From a virus (taxonomy: Duplodnaviria; Heunggongvirae; Uroviricota; Caudoviricetes): a stretch of DNA of 34,768 nucleotides. Positions 7,619-33,903 of this stretch are shown one piece after another. The number at the start of each line of letters is the position of its first letter. Position 1 is the stretch's first letter. The position numbers and the translations under genes were made by a program. The notes beneath the pieces are model-generated. The model did no database searches. It was not told the DNA's origin and worked only from the letters and a program-made list of their open reading frames with translations. The stretch lies in IMG/VR virus record IMGVR_UViG_3300029258_003331. One strand, given 5' to 3'.

Positions 7619-7898
7619 GGTTTCGATTCTACATCTTTCTTCCTAGATTTTCACAAAAAAGATGGCGACGAACGTATAACTAGGAATGGTAAGGACGTGC
7701 GGAGGGTGAGTCATGTCTTTTTTTGCCATTTAGGGACCGGGAAATGCGAATAGGTGTCATTGGTTCCTATATTTCTTTGATACCCTCCTGTGAGTAGGCT
7801 GATAAATGATCACACCGGAGGGATGCAACGGATATTTCGGATTCGCTCTACGATTGAGCGGGAGTTCCAGGGACTCATAGTTGACTGGAGGCGAAGGG

Positions 7899-10766
7899 AT
7901 GCCGGTACGTCGCGGATGGCACGTGAAGCAATCATTTTCGAACGACTTTGTGGGCATCATGGAAGCACTGGAGGAAAAATACGGCGACAAGATATTTGCA
8001 ATTCAGGGCATTGCCGGCGAGCACATGGACCTGGTTAAGTTCAGCAAACGGTTTTTCAAGAGCGCGACGGTAAGTGTGGCGGATGTGAGCGTAGATGGAA
8101 ATGCGAATGTCACCGAAAAAAACATCATGCAGTACAACTACGAGGCGAACAAAGCGTTAATGAAGTTGAACAGCCTTTATCTTCTTTTCAAGTGGGTCAA
8201 GCGTTTCTATGGTCATGACGCTGCGGAGGAGGCGCTGGAGAAGGTAGTCAACGGCGAACTTTTCGTCAATGACCTCGTAAACTACTCAATGCCGTATTCG
8301 TACTATCAGCAGACTCCTGTGATAGTGCGCGTAAATGGTGGTCCAACTCGCCTTCTGACCATGAAGGCGTTGTTTGAAGAGTATGAAGAGTTTGCCGAAC
8401 ACCATCCCGACCGTGAAACAATCAACATGACAAGTGTTTACAAGGAACTGGATTTTCATCGTGTTGCGGTGGGCAGCGACAGGAAGAAAATAGTGCTCAG
8501 CGGAAAAGCATCAGAATCCGTTTTGCAGCGGCACCGTGTGGAAGTACTCGATGGAAATGGCGAGTGGGTGGTACTCAAGAGAATACTTCGTCACCAGAAT
8601 GAACGTGGCTATGTCATTTATCAAACAAAAAATGGCGACATGGCTTTCGTGACAGACGATCATCCGGTTATCATGGAAGACGGGTCAGAGAAGAATGCGG
8701 AGGACCTGGTCGCCGGGGATACAATCAGGGGAAGCGAGAATACACTGCAATTACGTTCTATTGTCGATGTTCCTGCTGACATGGCGTATTTGATGGGCTT
8801 TATCGCTGGAGATGGTTCAGTAGGGCGGCACAAGTTCTACTCTGGCTCAAAGAATCTTACCGGCGAAGAGGTTGCTATCAAAGTGGATGAACTTCGCGGA
8901 AACATCCACATCTATCAGAAGAACATCGTCGAGACAAAGATTTACGAAGTGGTGACAAGGTTGTTCCCTGAGTGTGCCGTAAGGACGCGGGACGACAGGC
9001 AGATCGTCTTCAACTCAAATCATTTCAGGATGCTGCTTGCGAAGGTTTTTGGTGTTGGCTACGAATCGTCATATGCCAAGTCCCTTCCGAATAACGTGCT
9101 GGATTGGGACGCAGAATCGGTCAGCGCATATGTCGCGGGACTGGTGGACAGTGACGGCATTGTCACTCGGGGGTCTGTGAACCTTCGTATGTCGGCATAC
9201 GCAATTGTGAACCAATTGTCTGATGTGCTGGCGGCAATGGGTGTCTTCAATCATAAGAGTGTCGAGGAGATTGGCGAATCAAGTTCGGGACATGGTAAGG
9301 GTGGGGTTACATTCTTGTTCGGACTTTCATTTCAGCCTAATGAGGACATGATTGACGCATCTGTGAAGTTATCCTCTTTTGCGCGAGAGGGCGGGCTCAA
9401 CAGCAGTCTGGACACGAATGAGCGCACGAATGAAGTGTCAAAGACATTTCGATTGGATGCAGGAACGCAGAAGGTCACTCCCTCTGGTGAGGATGTTCTT
9501 GGGTTTGTATACGACATCACAACGGAGTCTGGCACCTTCTATGCTTGCGGAATGACGCAACATAACTGCTTTGCCTTTGATTTGCGTAATCTCTTGGCTA
9601 GTGGCATGGCATTTTTTGACGGTAATATGCCTATCAATCCTCCAAAGCGCAGTGACTCGTTTTTTGCCCTTCTCATTCAGTCGACCGCCTACATCAGCAA
9701 CCAGATTCTCGGCGCGGCTAGCTATCCGGATTTCTTTGTGGCATTGGATTGGTTTTACCGGAAAGAGATGGGTGAAGACTACGCGAAGCACCTGGATAGA
9801 AAAGAAACGTGGGGGAAGATCAAGAACCAATTCCAAAACTTGATTTTCTCTCTCAACTTTCCTTTTCGCGGAAATCAAAGTGCCTTTACCAATCTCAGCG
9901 TAATGGACAAAGGCTTCTTGGCGGAGTTGTTTAGGGGCTATGCTTATCCGGATGGCACCAAACCGGACCTGGATAGCGTCTTGGTGTTATCGCGGCGCTT
10001 TTTTGAGTATTACGCGGAAATCAACTGCGAAGAGGGCATTTTCACTTTTCCCATTATGACCTTGGCGATTTCTCTTGACGAAAACGGGGAGTACATCGAC
10101 CCCGAATTTGTTGACTGGGCTGCCGAAGCCAACTGCGCCAAGGCAACGGCAAACATTTTCCAATCAAAGCCCAATGCATTCTCCTCGTGCTGCCGGCTGA
10201 AATCCGAGTTCGACAAGGTAGCGAGCGACGGGTACCAAAATTCGTTCGGGGTTGGCGGTTTGTCAATCGGTAGCCACAGAGTAGCCGGGCTGAACCTGCC
10301 CCGCATTGCCATTTTGGAACGCGATGATCCGGATATCCTGGAAAAAGACTTGGCAGTTCTCCACAAGATTTTGGTTTCCCATCGACGACTTATCCAACAC
10401 CGCATTGAGACGGGTCACTTGCCACTCTACACGACAGGCTGGATTGACCTGCGTCGCCAATACAGCACGATTGGTTTTGTAGGCGGTTACGAGTATGTGG
10501 TGAACAAAGGACTCGACATCAAAAGCGAGGAGGGTATCCAAGCGCTTGCCAATGTGCTCCAGACCGTCGAACGTCACATCGCAGAGTGGCAGAAACACGA
10601 AAGGAGAGAAGGTCGCATACGCATTGTGACTGACGATGGGGAAGTACTGCATTTCGAGCCAAGCGACGAGTTGACGGTGAAACACGTATCCAATGGCAGG
10701 GTGTCCAAGGTGACGGCTTCTGAGTACATGGAGAATCAGGACAGTTACCTCTTGGGAATCGCTTGA
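7899..10766 (+). CDS. nrdD: Anaerobic (class III) ribonucleotide reductase, N-terminal fragment, intein-containing, no ATP cone
   Basis: GGAGG RBS with ATG 7899. Motifs DGNANV, MPY|CFAF, SNQILGA, FTNLS, TFPIMT, SSCCRL, LNLPRIA, QYSTIG. Stops before the NIEQ-PAE motif and the glycyl-radical motif. Confidence 0.9.
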   Translation: MPVRRGWHVKQSFSNDFVGIMEALEEKYGDKIFAIQGIAGEHMDLVKFSKRFFKSATVSVADVSVDGNANVTEKNIMQYNYEANKALMKLNSLYLLFKWVKRFYGHDAAEEALEKVVNGELFVNDLVNYSMPYSYYQQTPVIVRVNGGPTRLLTMKALFEEYEEFAEHHPDRETINMTSVYKELDFHRVAVGSDRKKIVLSGKASESVLQRHRVEVLDGNGEWVVLKRILRHQNERGYVIYQTKNGDMAFVTDDHPVIMEDGSEKNAEDLVAGDTIRGSENTLQLRSIVDVPADMAYLMGFIAGDGSVGRHKFYSGSKNLTGEEVAIKVDELRGNIHIYQKNIVETKIYEVVTRLFPECAVRTRDDRQIVFNSNHFRMLLAKVFGVGYESSYAKSLPNNVLDWDAESVSAYVAGLVDSDGIVTRGSVNLRMSAYAIVNQLSDVLAAMGVFNHKSVEEIGESSSGHGKGGVTFLFGLSFQPNEDMIDASVKLSSFAREGGLNSSLDTNERTNEVSKTFRLDAGTQKVTPSGEDVLGFVYDITTESGTFYACGMTQHNCFAFDLRNLLASGMAFFDGNMPINPPKRSDSFFALLIQSTAYISNQILGAASYPDFFVALDWFYRKEMGEDYAKHLDRKETWGKIKNQFQNLIFSLNFPFRGNQSAFTNLSVMDKGFLAELFRGYAYPDGTKPDLDSVLVLSRRFFEYYAEINCEEGIFTFPIMTLAISLDENGEYIDPEFVDWAAEANCAKATANIFQSKPNAFSSCCRLKSEFDKVASDGYQNSFGVGGLSIGSHRVAGLNLPRIAILERDDPDILEKDLAVLHKILVSHRRLIQHRIETGHLPLYTTGWIDLRRQYSTIGFVGGYEYVVNKGLDIKSEEGIQALANVLQTVERHIAEWQKHERREGRIRIVTDDGEVLHFEPSDELTVKHVSNGRVSKVTASEYMENQDSYLLGIA
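8298..9566 (+). mobile_element. Intein (423 aa, Ser1) with LAGLIDADG endonuclease
   Basis: Block A SYYQQTPV, block B VTDDHP, LAGLIDADG-like LMGFIAGDGS and VAGLVDSDG, block F VYDITT, terminal HN followed by Cys+1. Confidence 0.9.
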
Positions 10767-10812
10767 GGTTCCTTGTGTTGCCGTGGAAAACCGAGGTAGG
10801 TGGGGAAGCCAC

Positions 10813-12501
10813 ATGAAGTGCGAGATATGTGGAAAAACGGGATTCAAGAACAAGGACGGGGTTAGGAAACACCTGTGCCAAAAACATCCCGACTGTGACC
10901 CGGTGGACTACTACGACCAGCGTCTTCGGAAACAGGGAGAGGGAATCTGTCAAGCCTGCGGTGCGCCGACGACCTTTATCTCCTTCGGAAAAGGATACCG
11001 AAGATTTTGCAGTTGTTCTTGCGCAACCGGGCAATTCTGGTCCGACGATGAGAACCGGAGAATAAGAACGAAGCAGATTGTGAGCGGCACATCTACTGAA
11101 GAGGCGATACAAAAGCGAAGGGTGGCTATTTCGAAGTCGTGGAGGACGAGGAGTAAGGAGGCAAGAGAGAGAAGCCTCGCCAATATCAGGGTGTCTGGCG
11201 AGGAACATCAGTTCGGCACAGAAAAGCACAGACAGGCGATGATCCGAAGGTATGGTGCTGACAACTATTTCAAGACGGAAGAGTTTCAGGAAAGGATGAA
11301 AGGAAGAAGAGAAGAGATAGAGGAAAAAAAGAGACAGACGCACCTGAAACGCCGTGGTGTTAAACATTACGCCATGACGGAGGATTGGAAGGAAAGATTC
11401 AGACAAGCGGCAAGAAGAAGTCGGTATGAACTTTTCCTTATTCAGATGAGACAGAAGCAAATTGAGGCGTTGTTCGATAGAGCCTTTTTTATCGAGGCAA
11501 CGGCTGGTTTCAAATACAGATGCTTGCGGTGCGGTTTGGAGTTCGAGGGGGATAGCTGTGTCGCTCAATTGGTGTTTTGTCCATCGCAAGAACATAAATA
11601 CACGAGTGCGGCAGAAGATGAGATAGAGAAGGTTGTTTCGGACCTGGGGATTGCCTCCGAGAGGAACAGGAGATTTTACTACGACGGGACGAGATATCAC
11701 GAGATTGATGTATTTCTCCCGGGCTGCAGCGTGGGGATTGAACACCATGGGGCGTACTGGCATTCTGACCTGTTCAAAGACAAGTCATACCACCGTGAGA
11801 AGTACCTGTTTTTCCGGGAGAAAGGCATAAGGCTGATTCAGATTTTTGACAGCGAAATGGCGGACAGGTTTGAGTGTGTCAAGTCGCTGATTCGTTCCGC
11901 TGTCGGTAAGAATGTTTCCGTTTATGCCAGGCAATGTGAGGTGGCAGAAGTTCCCAGGAGAGACGAGGTGGAGTTTCTGGAACAAAACCACATCCAAGGA
12001 TCATGCATCGGTGGTTCCTTGGCGCTTGGTCTTTTTCGCGGTGGGGAAATCGTTGCTGTTGCCGTCTTTGGCAAGGCGAGATACAGGAAGGATTTTGATT
12101 GGGAATTGCTGAGGTTTTGTTCAAAGGCTGGATTGTCGGTCATTGGTGGTTTGAGTCGCTTGCTGAAGAGAGTAGAAGGATCGATTGTTAGTTACTGTGA
12201 TGTGCGCTTGTTCGATGGGCGCGGATACGAGAAGGTTGGGTTCCAGAATTGTGGACTGACTCAACCGAACTACTACTACTTCCGGAAAGGGAGCCGGAAA
12301 CTTCAAAGCCGGGTTAGGTTTCAGAAACACAAACTGCCGCATATTCTGGACGACTATGACCCGAGTCTTTCTGAATGCGAGAATATGATGAAAAACGGCT
12401 ATTACAGGATTTTTGACGCCGGCATGCTTCGATTTGAAAGGAAAACCTGTGAAATTCGTCAAAGCGACCGCAAACAGGAAACAGGAAAAAACAATCTATA
12501 A
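10813..12501 (+). mobile_element. Free-standing Hef-like homing endonuclease gene inside nrdD
   Basis: N-terminal Zn motifs (CEICG..HL..KH; CQACG..CSCSC), Vsr/DUF559-like EIDVFLP..GIEHHGAYWH, and a C-terminal ARQC..NHIQG..ELLRFC..SYCD..QKHKL domain typical of phage Hef-like proteins. Confidence 0.75.
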
Positions 12502-13045
12502 CATTGAGCAAATTCCAGCCGAGTCAATGGCTGTGCGGCTGGCTCAGATTGACCGCCTCATGGGGTTCAATCCGAGGGAATTTGAACTCTACTCGAACCA
12601 GTACATTCCGCTGGTTGAGGAAGCCAGCATTCACGACCGGTTTCGTATCCAGGGGCGCATTGACGGGTTGACAAGCGGGGGTGCCATCCTTCACATGAAC
12701 GTGGACGATGAGAAGCCCTTGGGAGCCCGGCAGTTCAAGCGCATCATGGAGCATGCGAAGAATAGTGGTACTGTGTATTTCGCGGTTAACTACGCCTACA
12801 GTGAGTGCGCGAAATTACACTACAGCATCGGGCGCAAGGAAATTTGTCCCGTCTGCGGCGAGCCTATCCAGCAGCAGTACACGCGGGTGGTCGGATTCGT
12901 GACACCAGTTAGGAGTTGGAATCCTGTGCGCCGTGGCTACGAATATCCAAATCGGGTTTTCTACTCGAATGGCGGCGTGGCTCCAGAGGAGCCCATTGCG
13001 ATTGAAGCAGTCGGGAAGTTTGAGGAGGTCTTGGCATCAGCATGA
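12449..13045 (+). CDS. nrdD: Class III ribonucleotide reductase, C-terminal fragment (glycyl-radical domain)
   Basis: NIEQIPAES, YSNQYIPL, SGGAILH, YFAVN, CxxxH..CPVC Zn site, TRVVGF. GTG 12449 with AAGGA upstream, overlapping the endonuclease 3' end. Confidence 0.88.
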   Translation: MKFVKATANRKQEKTIYNIEQIPAESMAVRLAQIDRLMGFNPREFELYSNQYIPLVEEASIHDRFRIQGRIDGLTSGGAILHMNVDDEKPLGARQFKRIMEHAKNSGTVYFAVNYAYSECAKLHYSIGRKEICPVCGEPIQQQYTRVVGFVTPVRSWNPVRRGYEYPNRVFYSNGGVAPEEPIAIEAVGKFEEVLASA

Positions 13046-27654: not shown

Positions 27655-27831
27655 ATGCTCCACGTTGAAACCTGTAGGACGTGCGATAAATGGTGTGATT
27701 CCTATAAGGACATTGGAGAAATTGGAGCGCTGTGGGGAGTAGAGGTTTTCTTGGAGGAAATGGCCCGGGCAGAACCACCTCGGACCTGTCACCAAAAGGA
27801 GAAACATCAAGAAGGACGCGCTTCAGCATAG
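27655..27831 (+). CDS. Small Cys-containing hypothetical protein
   Basis: 58 aa, CxxC. The 3' end overlaps the permuted RNA. Confidence 0.35.
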   Translation: MLHVETCRTCDKWCDSYKDIGEIGALWGVEVFLEEMARAEPPRTCHQKEKHQEGRASA

Positions 27832-27948
27832 GACTACTTCTTTCAATCTGCAGACGGGGGTTCGATTCCCTCTGGGGCTACATCAGACGGCCCCATAGTG
27901 CAGTGGCAGCACGGCAGCACAAGCAGCCTACGCGGTTTTTGGCGTCCT
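27813..27948 (+). ncRNA. Circularly permuted tRNA-Glu-like RNA (YrlA/Y-RNA-like topology)
   Basis: Order is T arm (27856-27872), acceptor 3' strand TGGGGCT, 9-nt linker, acceptor 5' strand GGCCCCA, D arm. Enclosed by CTGC/GCAG, TAGG/CCTA and AGGACGC/GCGTCCT stems. Confidence 0.8.
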
Positions 27949-28423: not shown

Positions 28424-28577
28424 AAAAGGCACGCTTCAGCGAGGAGATACTTCAGAGAAACCGGTGTCCTTCGGGACTTGTGGGTTCGAGCCCCACCGGG
28501 TCGTCCTCGGATGGCTTGTGGCGAAATTGGCAAACGCGCCGGTAAAAAGACACTCCTTGTATTTTTTGGTGCCTTTT
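28424..28577 (+). ncRNA. Circularly permuted type II (Leu-like) tRNA-like RNA
   Basis: ACCGG, variable arm GTCC-TTCG-GGAC, T arm, closed acceptor hairpin, D arm GCG-AAATTGGCAAA-CGC, CCGGT. Outer stems GAGGAG/CTCCTT and AAAAGGCAC/GTGCCTTTT. Confidence 0.8.
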
Positions 28578-28583
28578 GTTTTT

Positions 28584-28696
28584 AGGAAGCTGGAGGTTCA
28601 ATTCCTTCGTGTGGTCGTCCAAGAGCGCTCTTGGGGCTACTCCGCAGGTTGGCAAGCGCTTGCTGGCTAGCGGAAAGACGTGGTTGCCGGCTTCCT
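28584..28696 (+). ncRNA. Third, more divergent T-arm-first tRNA-like RNA
   Basis: GGAGG-TTCAATT-CCTTC T arm, long hairpin CCAAGA/TCTTGG, D-like CGC-AGGTTGGCAA-GCG, enclosing AGGAAGCT/GGCTTCCT. Confidence 0.5.
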
Positions 28697-28708
28697 CTTT
28701 ATAAGAAT

Positions 28709-29586: not shown

Positions 29587-29665
29587 AGGGCGGAAAGTCT
29601 GGTTGATTCGACGGGTCTTATAAACTCGTGTCCGCAGCAGGGTTCGATTCCCTCTCGCCCTACCA
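29587..29665 (+). ncRNA. Atypical tRNA-like RNA with UAU loop and tmRNA-like 5' motif
   Basis: 7-bp acceptor AGGGCGG/TCGCCCT plus ACCA, T arm, hairpin CGGGT-CTTATAA-ACTCG. No U8, weak D stem, contains GATTCGACGGG. Confidence 0.65.
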
Positions 29666-32349: not shown

Positions 32350-32739
32350 ATGAGAGCGTTGATTGTGGATGACTCGTCCACCATCCGGCGCATTCAGATA
32401 CGGCTACTGACGAGCATGGGTTTTGAGGAGTTTGTGGAAGCGCGCGATGGCAAAGAAGCGCTTTTCGAGATGGAGCGCGGAAGGTTCGACCTCGTTACTC
32501 TGGACCTCAATATGCCGCGAATGGGCGGCTTGGAGTTCCTGAGCGAGATAAGAAAGACAGACCGGGAAACGCCAATCGTCGTAGCCACTTCTGATGCGGA
32601 TAGAATGACAGTTATCATGGCAGCAAAGAAGGGCGCAAACCAGTATATCATCAAACCGTTTACGCCTGACGTTTTTCGCGCCAAAATACAAAGGATTCTA
32701 CCAAAGGAAGGCAGCGATGAACAATCCGGAAAACGGTAG
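32350..32739 (+). CDS. Stand-alone CheY-like response regulator
   Basis: LIVDDS, LDLNMP (phospho-acceptor Asp), VATS, YIIKPF: all conserved receiver residues. Confidence 0.9.
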   Translation: MRALIVDDSSTIRRIQIRLLTSMGFEEFVEARDGKEALFEMERGRFDLVTLDLNMPRMGGLEFLSEIRKTDRETPIVVATSDADRMTVIMAAKKGANQYIIKPFTPDVFRAKIQRILPKEGSDEQSGKR

Positions 32740-33330: not shown

Positions 33331-33903
33331 ATGAAACTTTCAGAGTGGGCGAAACAGAATGGTTTGAGTTATCGGACGGCTCACCGCCTGTTCCAGAGTG
33401 GTAAATTGCCTTGTGAAGCACAACAACTCGCAACAGGCACCATATTGGTACACCCTACGGAAGAACCATCTTCTGGTGATTTTGTCGTACTTTACGGAAG
33501 AGTGTCCTCACGTGATCAAAAAGATAATCTTGAGCGTCAGATGAATCGTCTCCGCGATTACGCTTCGGAGAAGGGTTTTAGGGTTACGCAGGAGATTACG
33601 GAAATAGGATCTGGACTTAACGGATCGAGGAAAAAGCTTTTGAAGATTCTCTCTTCAAAATCTATCTCGACTATCATTGTTGAGCATCGAGATCGATTGT
33701 CTCGCTTTGGCGTTGACTACATTGAGGCAGCACTTGATGCTGCTGGCAAGAGGATAATCGTGATAAATGAAGAGGAAGAGACTTCTGATCTCTTAAAGGA
33801 TTTCACAGATGTAGTCACTTCTATGTGTGCAAGAATTTATGGTAGAAGGTCAGCAAAGAATCGGGCAAAAAGAGCGATAAAGGCAGCAGAAAGTGAAGAT
33901 TAA
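33331..33903 (+). CDS. tnpA: IS607-family serine transposase
   Basis: MerR-like HTH (MKLSEWAK..LSYRTA), then YGRVSS..Q, EIGSGLN, EHRDRLSRFG. Confidence 0.95.
   Translation: MKLSEWAKQNGLSYRTAHRLFQSGKLPCEAQQLATGTILVHPTEEPSSGDFVVLYGRVSSRDQKDNLERQMNRLRDYASEKGFRVTQEITEIGSGLNGSRKKLLKILSSKSISTIIVEHRDRLSRFGVDYIEAALDAAGKRIIVINEEEETSDLLKDFTDVVTSMCARIYGRRSAKNRAKRAIKAAESED

What the first reader, a model, noticed from the sequence alone, without database searches (positions are those of the whole stretch)
28424..28577. Second permuted RNA, built on a type II tRNA, shares the scaffold motifs and so defines a family
Seen: the same inverted order but with a different tRNA body (UUCG-capped variable arm, Leu-type D arm). 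Both copies share an outer stem, then GCTTCAGC, then AGGA, then TACTTC, a 7-nt loop-like stretch (CTTTCAA versus CAGAGAA), and on the 3' side AAG and TTTTTG before the closing strand. The outer stems differ in sequence yet both pair (AGGACGC/GCGTCCT versus AAAAGGCAC/GTGCCTTTT), which is covariation within the window. Inference: a conserved protein-binding or processing scaffold carrying interchangeable tRNA modules that mirror isoacceptors (Glu, Leu) also encoded normally nearby. A33 in place of U33 argues for mimicry over decoding.
Basis: partly seen in the sequence, partly recalled or inferred. Interest (0 to 1): 0.85.

Follow-up and report, generated by a model that had tools for sequence, protein, structure and literature searches.

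The report
Phage Y RNA with Leu-tRNA mimic
This stretch encodes a small folded phage RNA made of a conserved stem-and-loop handle and an inside-out copy of a leucine tRNA; it belongs to a large, unannotated subfamily of Y RNAs, the partner RNAs of the Ro60 protein, and is a new variant of a known kind of RNA.

Summary
Window 28424-28577 and its sibling at 27813-27948 share a terminal stem, conserved internal loops and a tRNA-like body whose acceptor stem is sealed by a loop. The body here is Leu-like (type II) and the sibling's is Glu-like.

A covariance model built from 11 members (R1) scores the two copies at 95.9 and 105.9 bits. It finds at least 43 members in uncultured large-phage contigs. 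In 861 kb of unrelated viral DNA nothing scores above 18 bits. Twenty of 22 modelled pairs show compensatory changes.

The constant part is the scaffold. The payload varies from a whole permuted tRNA to almost nothing.

All 7 loci examined that encode one divergent phage Ro60 clade carry a scaffold copy upstream on the same strand. Y RNAs of cultured phages (CcrColossus, Satis) share UUACUUC, and they carry the known Ro60-contact motif where this family has GCUUCAG.

Best reading (about 0.7): a YrlA-type Y RNA subfamily, dispersed through phage tRNA arrays. Not shown: Ro60 binding, and a Ro60 gene in this phage (none lies in the window).

Earlier agents of this scan noted the same kind of RNA on other DNA. 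I found no paper describing it.

The parts
28424..28432 (+). P1, 5' strand of the terminal stem (AAAAGGCAC)
   Evidence: Pairs with 28569-28577 in the minimum-energy fold. All 7 P1 pairs show compensatory changes across 43 members.
28433..28440 (+). Conserved 5' internal-loop motif GCUUCAGC; the last two bases (GC) begin helix P2
   Evidence: Nearly invariant as C-(G/U/A)CU(U/C)CAG in 43 members. It occupies the slot that holds GCGACAG or GCGUAG in the Y RNAs of cultured phages.
28439..28446 (+). P2, 5' strand (GCGAGGAG)
   Evidence: Pairs with 28553-28560. Six of 7 P2 pairs show double changes.
28448..28453 (+). Conserved UACUUC element
   Evidence: Nearly invariant across the family and shared with the Ro60-adjacent RNAs of CcrColossus and Satis. 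It corresponds to the YUAY element of YrlA (PMC4201824).
28453..28459 (+). Anticodon-loop-like 7-mer CAGAGAA (Leu GAG, with A at position 33)
   Evidence: The un-permuted body is called tRNA-Leu(GAG) with a perfect 5-bp stem, CCGGU/ACCGG.
28460..28543 (+). tRNA-Leu-like body in permuted order: anticodon-stem 3' strand 28460-64, variable arm 28466-77, T arm 28480-96, sealed acceptor hairpin 28497-518, D arm 28521-37, anticodon-stem 5' strand 28539-43
   Evidence: Supported by the fold, the weak Rfam YrlA alignment over 28452-28563, and closest similarity to the window's tRNA-Leu(UAG) at 64%.
28544..28552 (+). A-rich 3' side of the inner internal loop
   Evidence: A-rich in most members. Its role is unknown.
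28553..28560 (+). P2, 3' strand (CUCCUUGU)
28561..28568 (+). Conserved 3' internal-loop motif (AUUUUUUG; family consensus NCG-NN-U-N-U-Y-G)
28569..28577 (+). P1, 3' strand (GUGCCUUUU)
27813..27948 (+). Sibling copy 1: the same scaffold with a tRNA-Glu-like body, loop CUUUCAA (Glu UUC), and a 7-bp acceptor stem closed by a 9-nt loop
   Evidence: R1 scores it at 105.9 bits. See also the fold, the ARAGORN call of Glu(UUC) after un-permuting, and 71% identity to the window's tRNA-Glu(CUC).

Best explanation
The RNA is a phage Y RNA of the YrlA type.

Its 5' and 3' ends pair to form P1. Then come a conserved asymmetric internal loop (GCUUCAG opposite NCG..UUUUUG), a second helix P2, and a UACUUC element. 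This scaffold is most likely the binding site for a divergent clade of phage Ro60 (TROVE plus Ro60-type vWA domains).

The scaffold carries a payload. Here the payload is a complete tRNA-Leu look-alike, opened between positions 31 and 32 and sealed at the acceptor end. It cannot be charged or decode, but it can present a tRNA shape to proteins that recognise tRNA.

By analogy with studied Y RNAs, the RNA would gate or tether Ro60 to RNA-processing or RNA-repair enzymes during infection. The copies in tRNA arrays are probably cut out of the long array transcript.

What is shown: the architecture, the covariation, the size of the family, the genomic link of the family to Ro60, and a motif slot shared with known phage Y RNAs.

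What is inferred: binding to Ro60, processing from the array transcript, and the downstream function.
For: - Both copies fold as terminal stem, internal loops and a multi-way tRNA-like junction with a closed acceptor. This is the YrlA topology (Rfam alignment; PMC4201824).
- R1 finds 43 members at E of 1e-7 or better. Cells paired: 95.6% against 66.7% in shuffles. Covariation score: 0.63 against 0.19 in shuffles and at most 0.13 in slid registers. Twenty of 22 pairs show double changes.
- An 861-kb control gave no hit above 18 bits.
- In the 253-kb phage record G001, one copy lies 425 nt upstream of a Ro60 gene on the same strand.
- All 7 loci fetched for this Ro60 clade, whose proteins share 49-84% identity, have a full-length copy upstream on the same strand at 36-64 bits. 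One of them (L342) has no tRNA gene in the locus at all.
- No canonical YrlA reaches threshold at the four of these loci that I scanned with Rfam (L336-L339).
- R1 and Rfam YrlA hit the same Ro60-adjacent RNAs in the cultured phages CcrColossus, Satis and G. Those RNAs share UUACUUC and carry GCGACAG or GCGUAG in the slot of GCUUCAG.
- No other protein family recurs beside the members.
Against: - No Ro60/TROVE gene lies in the 34.7-kb window. No genome is held for this phage, so whether it encodes Ro60 is unknown.
- The window copies fail YrlA's literal criteria. The GNCGAAN0-1G motif is absent. The Rfam scores are 18.9 and 26.9 bits against a gathering score of 69. They are not within 4 kb of a Ro60 gene.
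- Most copies lie in tRNA arrays tens of kb from Ro60.
- In 6 of the 7 Ro60 loci, Ro60 itself sits beside a tRNA or tmRNA gene. Part of the linkage could therefore reflect clustering of RNA genes.
- There is no expression or binding evidence.
- The A2 alignment was fitted to the model, which inflates the pairing statistics somewhat.
Confidence: 0.7

Rival explanations
1. The scaffold serves a partner other than Ro60, or works as a processing or stability element for tRNA-array transcripts. On this view its position beside Ro60 genes only reflects the clustering of RNA genes in these phages.
For: Most copies sit in tRNA arrays far from Ro60. Six of the 7 Ro60 loci also hold a tRNA or tmRNA gene. 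Earlier notes of this scan report YrlA-like RNAs paired with non-Ro60 proteins, DUF7873 and TerD; these are unverified leads. The literal Ro60-contact motif is absent.
Against: No other protein family recurs near members. No DUF7873 or TerD domain turned up in the window's large ORFs or in the gene table of its array region. L342 has a copy 128 nt upstream of Ro60 and no tRNA in 13.8 kb. The motif occupies the same slot, with the same GC..CAG frame, as the Ro60-contact motif of known phage Y RNAs.
Confidence: 0.17
2. It is a circularly permuted pre-tRNA gene. The scaffold would be cut away, the ends ligated to close the anticodon loop, and the acceptor loop opened, giving a working tRNA-Leu(GAG).
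For: The 3' half precedes the 5' half. A 7-nt loop that matches the body's identity is retained in many members. Jumbo phages often encode RNA ligases (PMC7824862). M. smegmatis YrlA is cleaved by RNase P and receives CCA (PMC4201824).
Against: Family members exist with no tRNA body, or with only a T arm. In this copy the acceptor continues into a hairpin of 9-10 pairs, rich in G-U, with a 3-nt loop and no single-stranded leader. Position 33 is A here, and G or A in other members. Several members have degenerate anticodon stems. An ordinary tRNA-Leu(GAG) is encoded 900 nt upstream. The P1/P2 junction is a large asymmetric internal loop, not a bulge-helix-bulge.
Confidence: 0.07
3. It is a chance or decayed product: the junction of two tandem tRNA genes, or a tRNA pseudogene, with no function of its own.
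For: The Rfam YrlA model also weakly hits junctions between ordinary adjacent tRNAs.
Against: There are no flanking tRNA halves. The enclosing scaffold is conserved, with compensatory changes across 43 members in many contigs. The syntenic relative L240 has both RNAs, with many compensatory substitutions.
Confidence: 0.02

Closest known systems
YrlA (Y RNA-like A; Rfam RF02553) of Salmonella, M. smegmatis and mycobacteriophages (Chen et al. 2014, PMC4201824; Wang et al. 2018, bioRxiv 10.1101/312249)
   Same: The 5' and 3' ends pair in a stem with an internal loop. A (Y)UAC element follows. The tRNA-like domain runs V, T, sealed acceptor, D. Family members lie just upstream of Ro60 on the same strand, often in several copies.
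   Different: The slot of GNCGAAN0-1G holds GCUUCAG. Rfam scores are far below the gathering score. Up to about 9 copies occur per genome, most of them dispersed in tRNA arrays tens of kb from Ro60. The bodies are whole tRNAs of different isoacceptor types that keep matching anticodon-loop sequences. Some members have no body.
Yrl1 and Yrl2 of Thermus phage phiLo, shown to bind phage Ro60 (NAR 2025, PMC12135203)
   Same: Phage-encoded Y-like RNAs upstream of a phage Ro60 gene, with a stem-bulge-stem build.
   Different: Those RNAs were identified through the CGAA motif, and binding was shown by experiment. Here the motif differs, nothing has been tested, and the Ro60 clade is under 32% identical to any cultured-phage Ro60.
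Ro60-adjacent RNAs of Caulobacter phage CcrColossus and Streptomyces phage Satis (unannotated in the records)
   Same: They are hit by both R1 and Rfam YrlA. They share UUACUUC, the tRNA-like body and the terminal stem.
   Different: They carry GCGACAG, GCGACGU or GCGUAG in the motif slot, and they lie next to Ro60 instead of inside large tRNA arrays.
Circularly permuted tRNA genes of Cyanidioschyzon merolae and some archaea (from my own knowledge, not checked here)
   Same: The 3' half of a tRNA lies upstream of the 5' half in one transcript.
   Different: Those genes mature through a bulge-helix-bulge cut, a circular intermediate and opening of the acceptor, and they supply needed tRNAs. Here there is no bulge-helix-bulge, the acceptor is sealed, the isoacceptor is redundant, and body-less relatives exist.

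Membership tests
YrlA-type bacterial/phage Y RNA (Chen et al. 2014; Rfam RF02553) | A terminal stem formed by the 5' and 3' ends, interrupted by an internal loop | tested here: met
   Seen in the folds. P1 and P2 covary across 43 members.
YrlA-type bacterial/phage Y RNA (Chen et al. 2014; Rfam RF02553) | The GNCGAAN0-1G motif near the 5' end (presumed Ro60 contact) | tested here: not met
   GCUUCAGC occupies this slot. Cultured-phage relatives have GCGACAG or GCGUAG there, so this looks like a derived variant, not the motif itself.
YrlA-type bacterial/phage Y RNA (Chen et al. 2014; Rfam RF02553) | A conserved YUAY ahead of the variable arm | tested here: inconclusive
   Copy 1 has CUAC, which fits. 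Copy 2 has AUAC, where the first base is not a pyrimidine. The family consensus is (A/U)UACUUC.
YrlA-type bacterial/phage Y RNA (Chen et al. 2014; Rfam RF02553) | A tRNA-like domain in the order V, T arm, loop-closed acceptor stem, D arm | tested here: met
YrlA-type bacterial/phage Y RNA (Chen et al. 2014; Rfam RF02553) | Encoded within about 4 kb of a Ro60 gene on the same strand | tested here: not met
   No TROVE gene lies in the 34.7-kb window. Other members of the family do meet this, at 7 of 7 clade Ro60 loci.
YrlA-type bacterial/phage Y RNA (Chen et al. 2014; Rfam RF02553) | Reaches the Rfam gathering score (69 bits) | tested here: not met
   Copy 2 scores 18.9 bits and copy 1 scores 26.9 bits.
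YrlA-type bacterial/phage Y RNA (Chen et al. 2014; Rfam RF02553) | Physically bound by Ro60/Rsr | not testable with these tools
   This needs EMSA or co-immunoprecipitation.
Circularly permuted tRNA gene that matures to a functional tRNA | The 3' half lies upstream of the 5' half | tested here: met
Circularly permuted tRNA gene that matures to a functional tRNA | The termini form a bulge-helix-bulge or another defined cut-and-ligate signal at the anticodon loop | tested here: not met
   The junction is a large asymmetric internal loop between P2 and the anticodon stem, 13 nt opposite 9 nt, with no 3-4-3 bulge-helix-bulge.
Circularly permuted tRNA gene that matures to a functional tRNA | An acceptor end that can be opened, and a canonical anticodon loop (U33) | tested here: not met
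   The acceptor continues into a hairpin of 9-10 pairs with a 3-nt loop. Position 33 is A.

The most novel reading that the evidence does not exclude
The copies in tRNA arrays are isoacceptor-specific tRNA decoys or adapters. Each would present the body and anticodon loop of one particular tRNA (Leu, Glu, Pro, Thr, Ile) on a Ro60 handle. They could soak up or sense host anticodon nucleases and tRNA-modifying defences, or bring the matching damaged tRNA, synthetase or repair enzyme to Ro60. Members with a 7-bp acceptor stem and an open loop (such as copy 1) might be cut by RNase P, receive CCA and even be charged, as a two-piece RNA.
Probability: 0.15. Interest if true: 0.85.

Novelty: new variant of a known kind. 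Interest (0 to 1): 0.55.

Why it matters
Y RNAs and Ro60 are conserved from bacteria to humans, yet the function of their tRNA-like module is still open. This family offers a natural experiment. One fixed handle is combined with many different payloads: whole tRNAs of defined identity, single arms, or nothing. There are many copies per phage genome, and they sit among the tRNA genes that large phages are thought to use against host tRNA-targeting defences.

The family also shows that the standard search rules miss most of these RNAs. Those rules are the CGAA motif, a distance of at most 4 kb from Ro60, and discarding hits in tRNA clusters.

The paired change of the RNA motif (GA to UU in the same slot) and the Ro60 clade gives a directly testable specificity switch for Ro60-RNA recognition.

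Tried and rejected
2. Adding a T-loop gave 19 loci. After I wrongly took the multi-copy ones as proof of a family. Inspection showed they are collagen-like Gly/Ser/Thr repeat genes, and only L134 was genuine. I withdrew that statement.
3. The genome-contig scan gave 79 loci. None passed the structural filter, so no member was found in cellular genomes with the exact motif.
4. blastn of the region against GenBank phages found only a tRNA-Glu match.
5. No own genome is held for the window. Metagenome records behind the members cannot be searched whole.
6. A single-protein search for Ro60 relatives in the viral collection found only the query itself.
7. Walking off the window's 3' end failed, because public assemblies of this phage break just after the resolvase gene.
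9. The first un-permuting test was uninformative, because any junction yields some anticodon. I replaced it with a junction-constrained version.
10. The third element at 28584-28697 is not recognised by R1, even with filters off.
11. The 2020 Ro60/Y RNA review (PMC10870794) is not held.

Full report
**What is there.** The window is part of an uncultured large phage. It encodes a split anaerobic ribonucleotide reductase with a homing-endonuclease insert, its activase, a caspase-like protease and an HNH nuclease. It also holds 16 tRNA genes on the + strand between 26363 and 33274.

The flagged stretch 28424-28577 reads as follows:
- P1 5' strand
- GCUUCAGC
- P2 5' strand
- UACUUC
- a 7-nt stretch, CAGAGAA
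- a tRNA body in the order anticodon-stem 3' strand, UUCG-capped variable arm, T arm, acceptor hairpin, Leu-type D arm, anticodon-stem 5' strand
- an A-rich stretch
- P2 3' strand
- AUUUUUUG
- P1 3' strand

The sibling at 27813-27948 has the same order around a Glu-like body. Both fold as a terminal stem with internal loops leading into a tRNA-like multi-way junction whose acceptor stem is closed by a loop. Ordinary tRNA-Leu(GAG) and tRNA-Glu(UUC) lie just upstream.

**Finding relatives.** In the viral collection it returned chance hits in coding sequence. With a T-loop added it returned mostly collagen-like repeat genes. After I briefly and wrongly took the multi-copy loci as evidence for a family. 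Inspection showed that only L134, from a 253-kb viral contig, was genuine.

I then fixed the spacer length, scanned the metagenome collection and filtered by structure (closing P1, paired T stem). This recovered about ten distinct members. All lie inside large phage tRNA arrays, on the same strand as the tRNAs. L240 is syntenic with the window.

**Structure and size of the family.** An 11-sequence alignment gave 22 consensus pairs, 17 of them with compensatory changes. The covariance model R1 then found many copies that were not in the training set, typically 3-6 per array. At E of 1e-7 or better there are 43 members.

| Measure on the 43 members | Observed | Shuffled | Slid registers |
|---|---|---|---|
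| Cells paired | 95.6% | 66.7% | 37-47% |
| Covariation score | 0.63 | 0.19 | at most 0.13 |

Twenty of 22 pairs show changes on both sides. The alignment was fitted to the model, so these numbers lean towards the structure. A control of 861 kb of unrelated viral DNA gave nothing above 18 bits.

The new members show that the scaffold is the constant unit and the payload varies. Payloads are full permuted tRNA bodies, a lone T arm with hairpins, or almost nothing in copies of 63-70 nt. The scaffold consensus is P1, C-(G/U/A)CU(U/C)CAG, P2, (A/U)UACUUC, payload, P2', NCG-NN-U-N-U-Y-GG, P1'.

**The link to Ro60.** The topology matches YrlA, the tRNA-mimicking bacterial Y RNA (PMC4201824). Rfam's YrlA model touches both window copies only weakly, at 26.9 and 18.9 bits against a gathering score of 69. 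It also weakly hits junctions between ordinary tRNAs, so that alone proves little.

The decisive evidence is genomic:
- The 253-kb record G001 encodes a true Ro60 orthologue with TROVE and Ro60-type vWA domains.
- G001 holds nine full-length R1 copies. One, with no body, lies 425 nt upstream of Ro60 on the same strand.
- I fetched six more loci for relatives of this Ro60, at 49-84% identity. All seven loci have a full-length copy upstream on the same strand, at 36-64 bits.
- No canonical YrlA reaches threshold at the four of these loci that I scanned with Rfam, L336-L339.
- One locus (L342) has the RNA 128 nt from Ro60 and no tRNA gene at all. This argues against a mere clustering of RNA genes.
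- No other protein family recurs beside members.

**The bridge to known Y RNAs.** Cultured-phage Ro60 proteins are all under 32% identical to this clade. Even so, R1 hits directly upstream of Ro60 in CcrColossus, Satis and phage G, at the same places as Rfam's YrlA model.

Those RNAs share UUACUUC. In the slot of GCUUCAG they carry GCGACAG, GCGACGU or GCGUAG, which are recognisable forms of the GNCGAAN0-1G contact motif. The family's motif therefore looks like a derived version of the Ro60 site (GA replaced by UU within the same GC..CAG frame), in step with a divergent Ro60 clade.

**The tRNA modules.** I un-permuted each body with the junction fixed at 31|32 and kept the best-paired anticodon stems. 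ARAGORN then read the native loops as follows:

| Body | Anticodon read from the native loop |
|---|---|
| Two Glu-like bodies | Glu UUC |
| Five type II (Leu-like) bodies | Leu GAG, CAG, CAA, UAA, CAA |
| Other type I bodies | Pro UGG (twice), Thr UGU, Ile UAU |

Some members allow alternative registers, so this table is indicative. Position 33 is often A or G.

The window bodies are closest to the phage's own tRNA-Glu (71%) and tRNA-Leu (64%). They belong to the matching tRNA families but are not recent duplicates.

**Against a maturing pre-tRNA.** For the finding's copy the acceptor runs on into a hairpin of 9-10 pairs, rich in G-U, with a 3-nt loop. Position 33 is A. The same anticodon is supplied by a normal tRNA nearby. 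Body-less relatives exist.

Copy 1 has a 7-bp acceptor stem and a 9-nt loop. It could in principle be cut by RNase P, as M. smegmatis YrlA is (PMC4201824). That is an inference.

**What is missing.**
- No Ro60 gene lies in the window.
- No genome is held for this phage, and public assemblies break at the resolvase gene. Whether the phage encodes Ro60 is therefore unknown. In G001 the array copies lie 38-57 kb from Ro60, so its absence from a 34.7-kb window is uninformative.
- No sigma-70-type promoter or intrinsic terminator lies between 27200 and 29200. This fits excision from a long array transcript, which is an inference.

**Novelty.** Phage Y RNAs are known from mycobacteriophages (PMC4201824) and from Thermus phage phiLo, where binding to phage Ro60 was shown (PMC12135203). 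A jumbo-phage review notes TROVE proteins with a tRNA-like partner (PMC7824862).

Four things appear undescribed in the papers I could search:
- this motif variant
- the large copy number
- the dispersal through tRNA arrays
- the isoacceptor-matched payloads

The published pipeline excluded hits more than 4 kb from Ro60 or overlapping tandem tRNA genes.

Earlier agents of this scan reported the same kind of RNA on other DNA (e1-1610882, e1-1843367, e1-1877120). I reached the reading before seeing those notes, and they agree with it.

**Verdict.** This is a new variant of a known kind, of moderate interest.

Noticed in passing
window 28584-28697: A third structured element lies directly behind the finding. 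It has a 10-bp outer stem (AGGAAGCUGG/CCGGCUUCCU), a T-arm-like hairpin and two further hairpins. R1 recognises only the T arm, at 6.8 bits with filters off. It is therefore not a member by the model, and may be a decayed copy or a different RNA.
   Followed up: partly
L336 5723-5814; L337 4829-4917; L339 4726-5590; L340 2347-2421; L341 2875-4323: A recurring layout appears upstream of this clade's Ro60 gene: (tmRNA), scaffold RNA(s), tRNA-Met(CAU), then Ro60. Two of the tRNA-Met genes are unusually long (89-92 nt, with an extra arm).
   Followed up: no
window 29587-29665: ARAGORN calls a 79-nt tRNA-Ile(UAU). Rfam's tRNA model does not reach threshold there, and its best match is tRNA-Sec at 26.4 bits. 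This is an atypical tRNA-like gene.
   Followed up: no
window 7881-13045: The anaerobic ribonucleotide reductase is in two ORFs. NRDD profile positions 53-404, plus a LAGLIDADG domain, lie in 7881-10766. NRDD positions 396-562 lie in 12413-13045. A 572-aa ORF of unclear family (10783-12501) sits between them.
   Followed up: no
window 33331-33903: This is a serine-resolvase gene. Several public assemblies of this phage end about 200 nt past it, which suggests a repeated or mobile element at that point.
   Followed up: no
window 32350-32739; L336, L337, L342 downstream of Ro60: The window's stand-alone receiver-domain protein belongs to a family that is also encoded near Ro60 in three clade loci, there alongside histidine-kinase genes. 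This is a weak hint that these phages are related.
   Followed up: no
L337 388-2031 and 7816-8484: A CCA-adding-enzyme-like gene (PolyA_pol plus HD) lies about 4 kb upstream of Ro60, and a ClpP gene lies directly downstream. ClpP also occurs in the L338 locus.
   Followed up: no
L121, L123, L127, L130-L133 (viral contigs): These loci hold long collagen-like Gly/Ser/Thr repeat genes. Their codon pattern (GGTTCA...) mimics T-loops and the GCTTCAGC...TACTTC motif, so they are a trap for pattern searches.
   Followed up: yes
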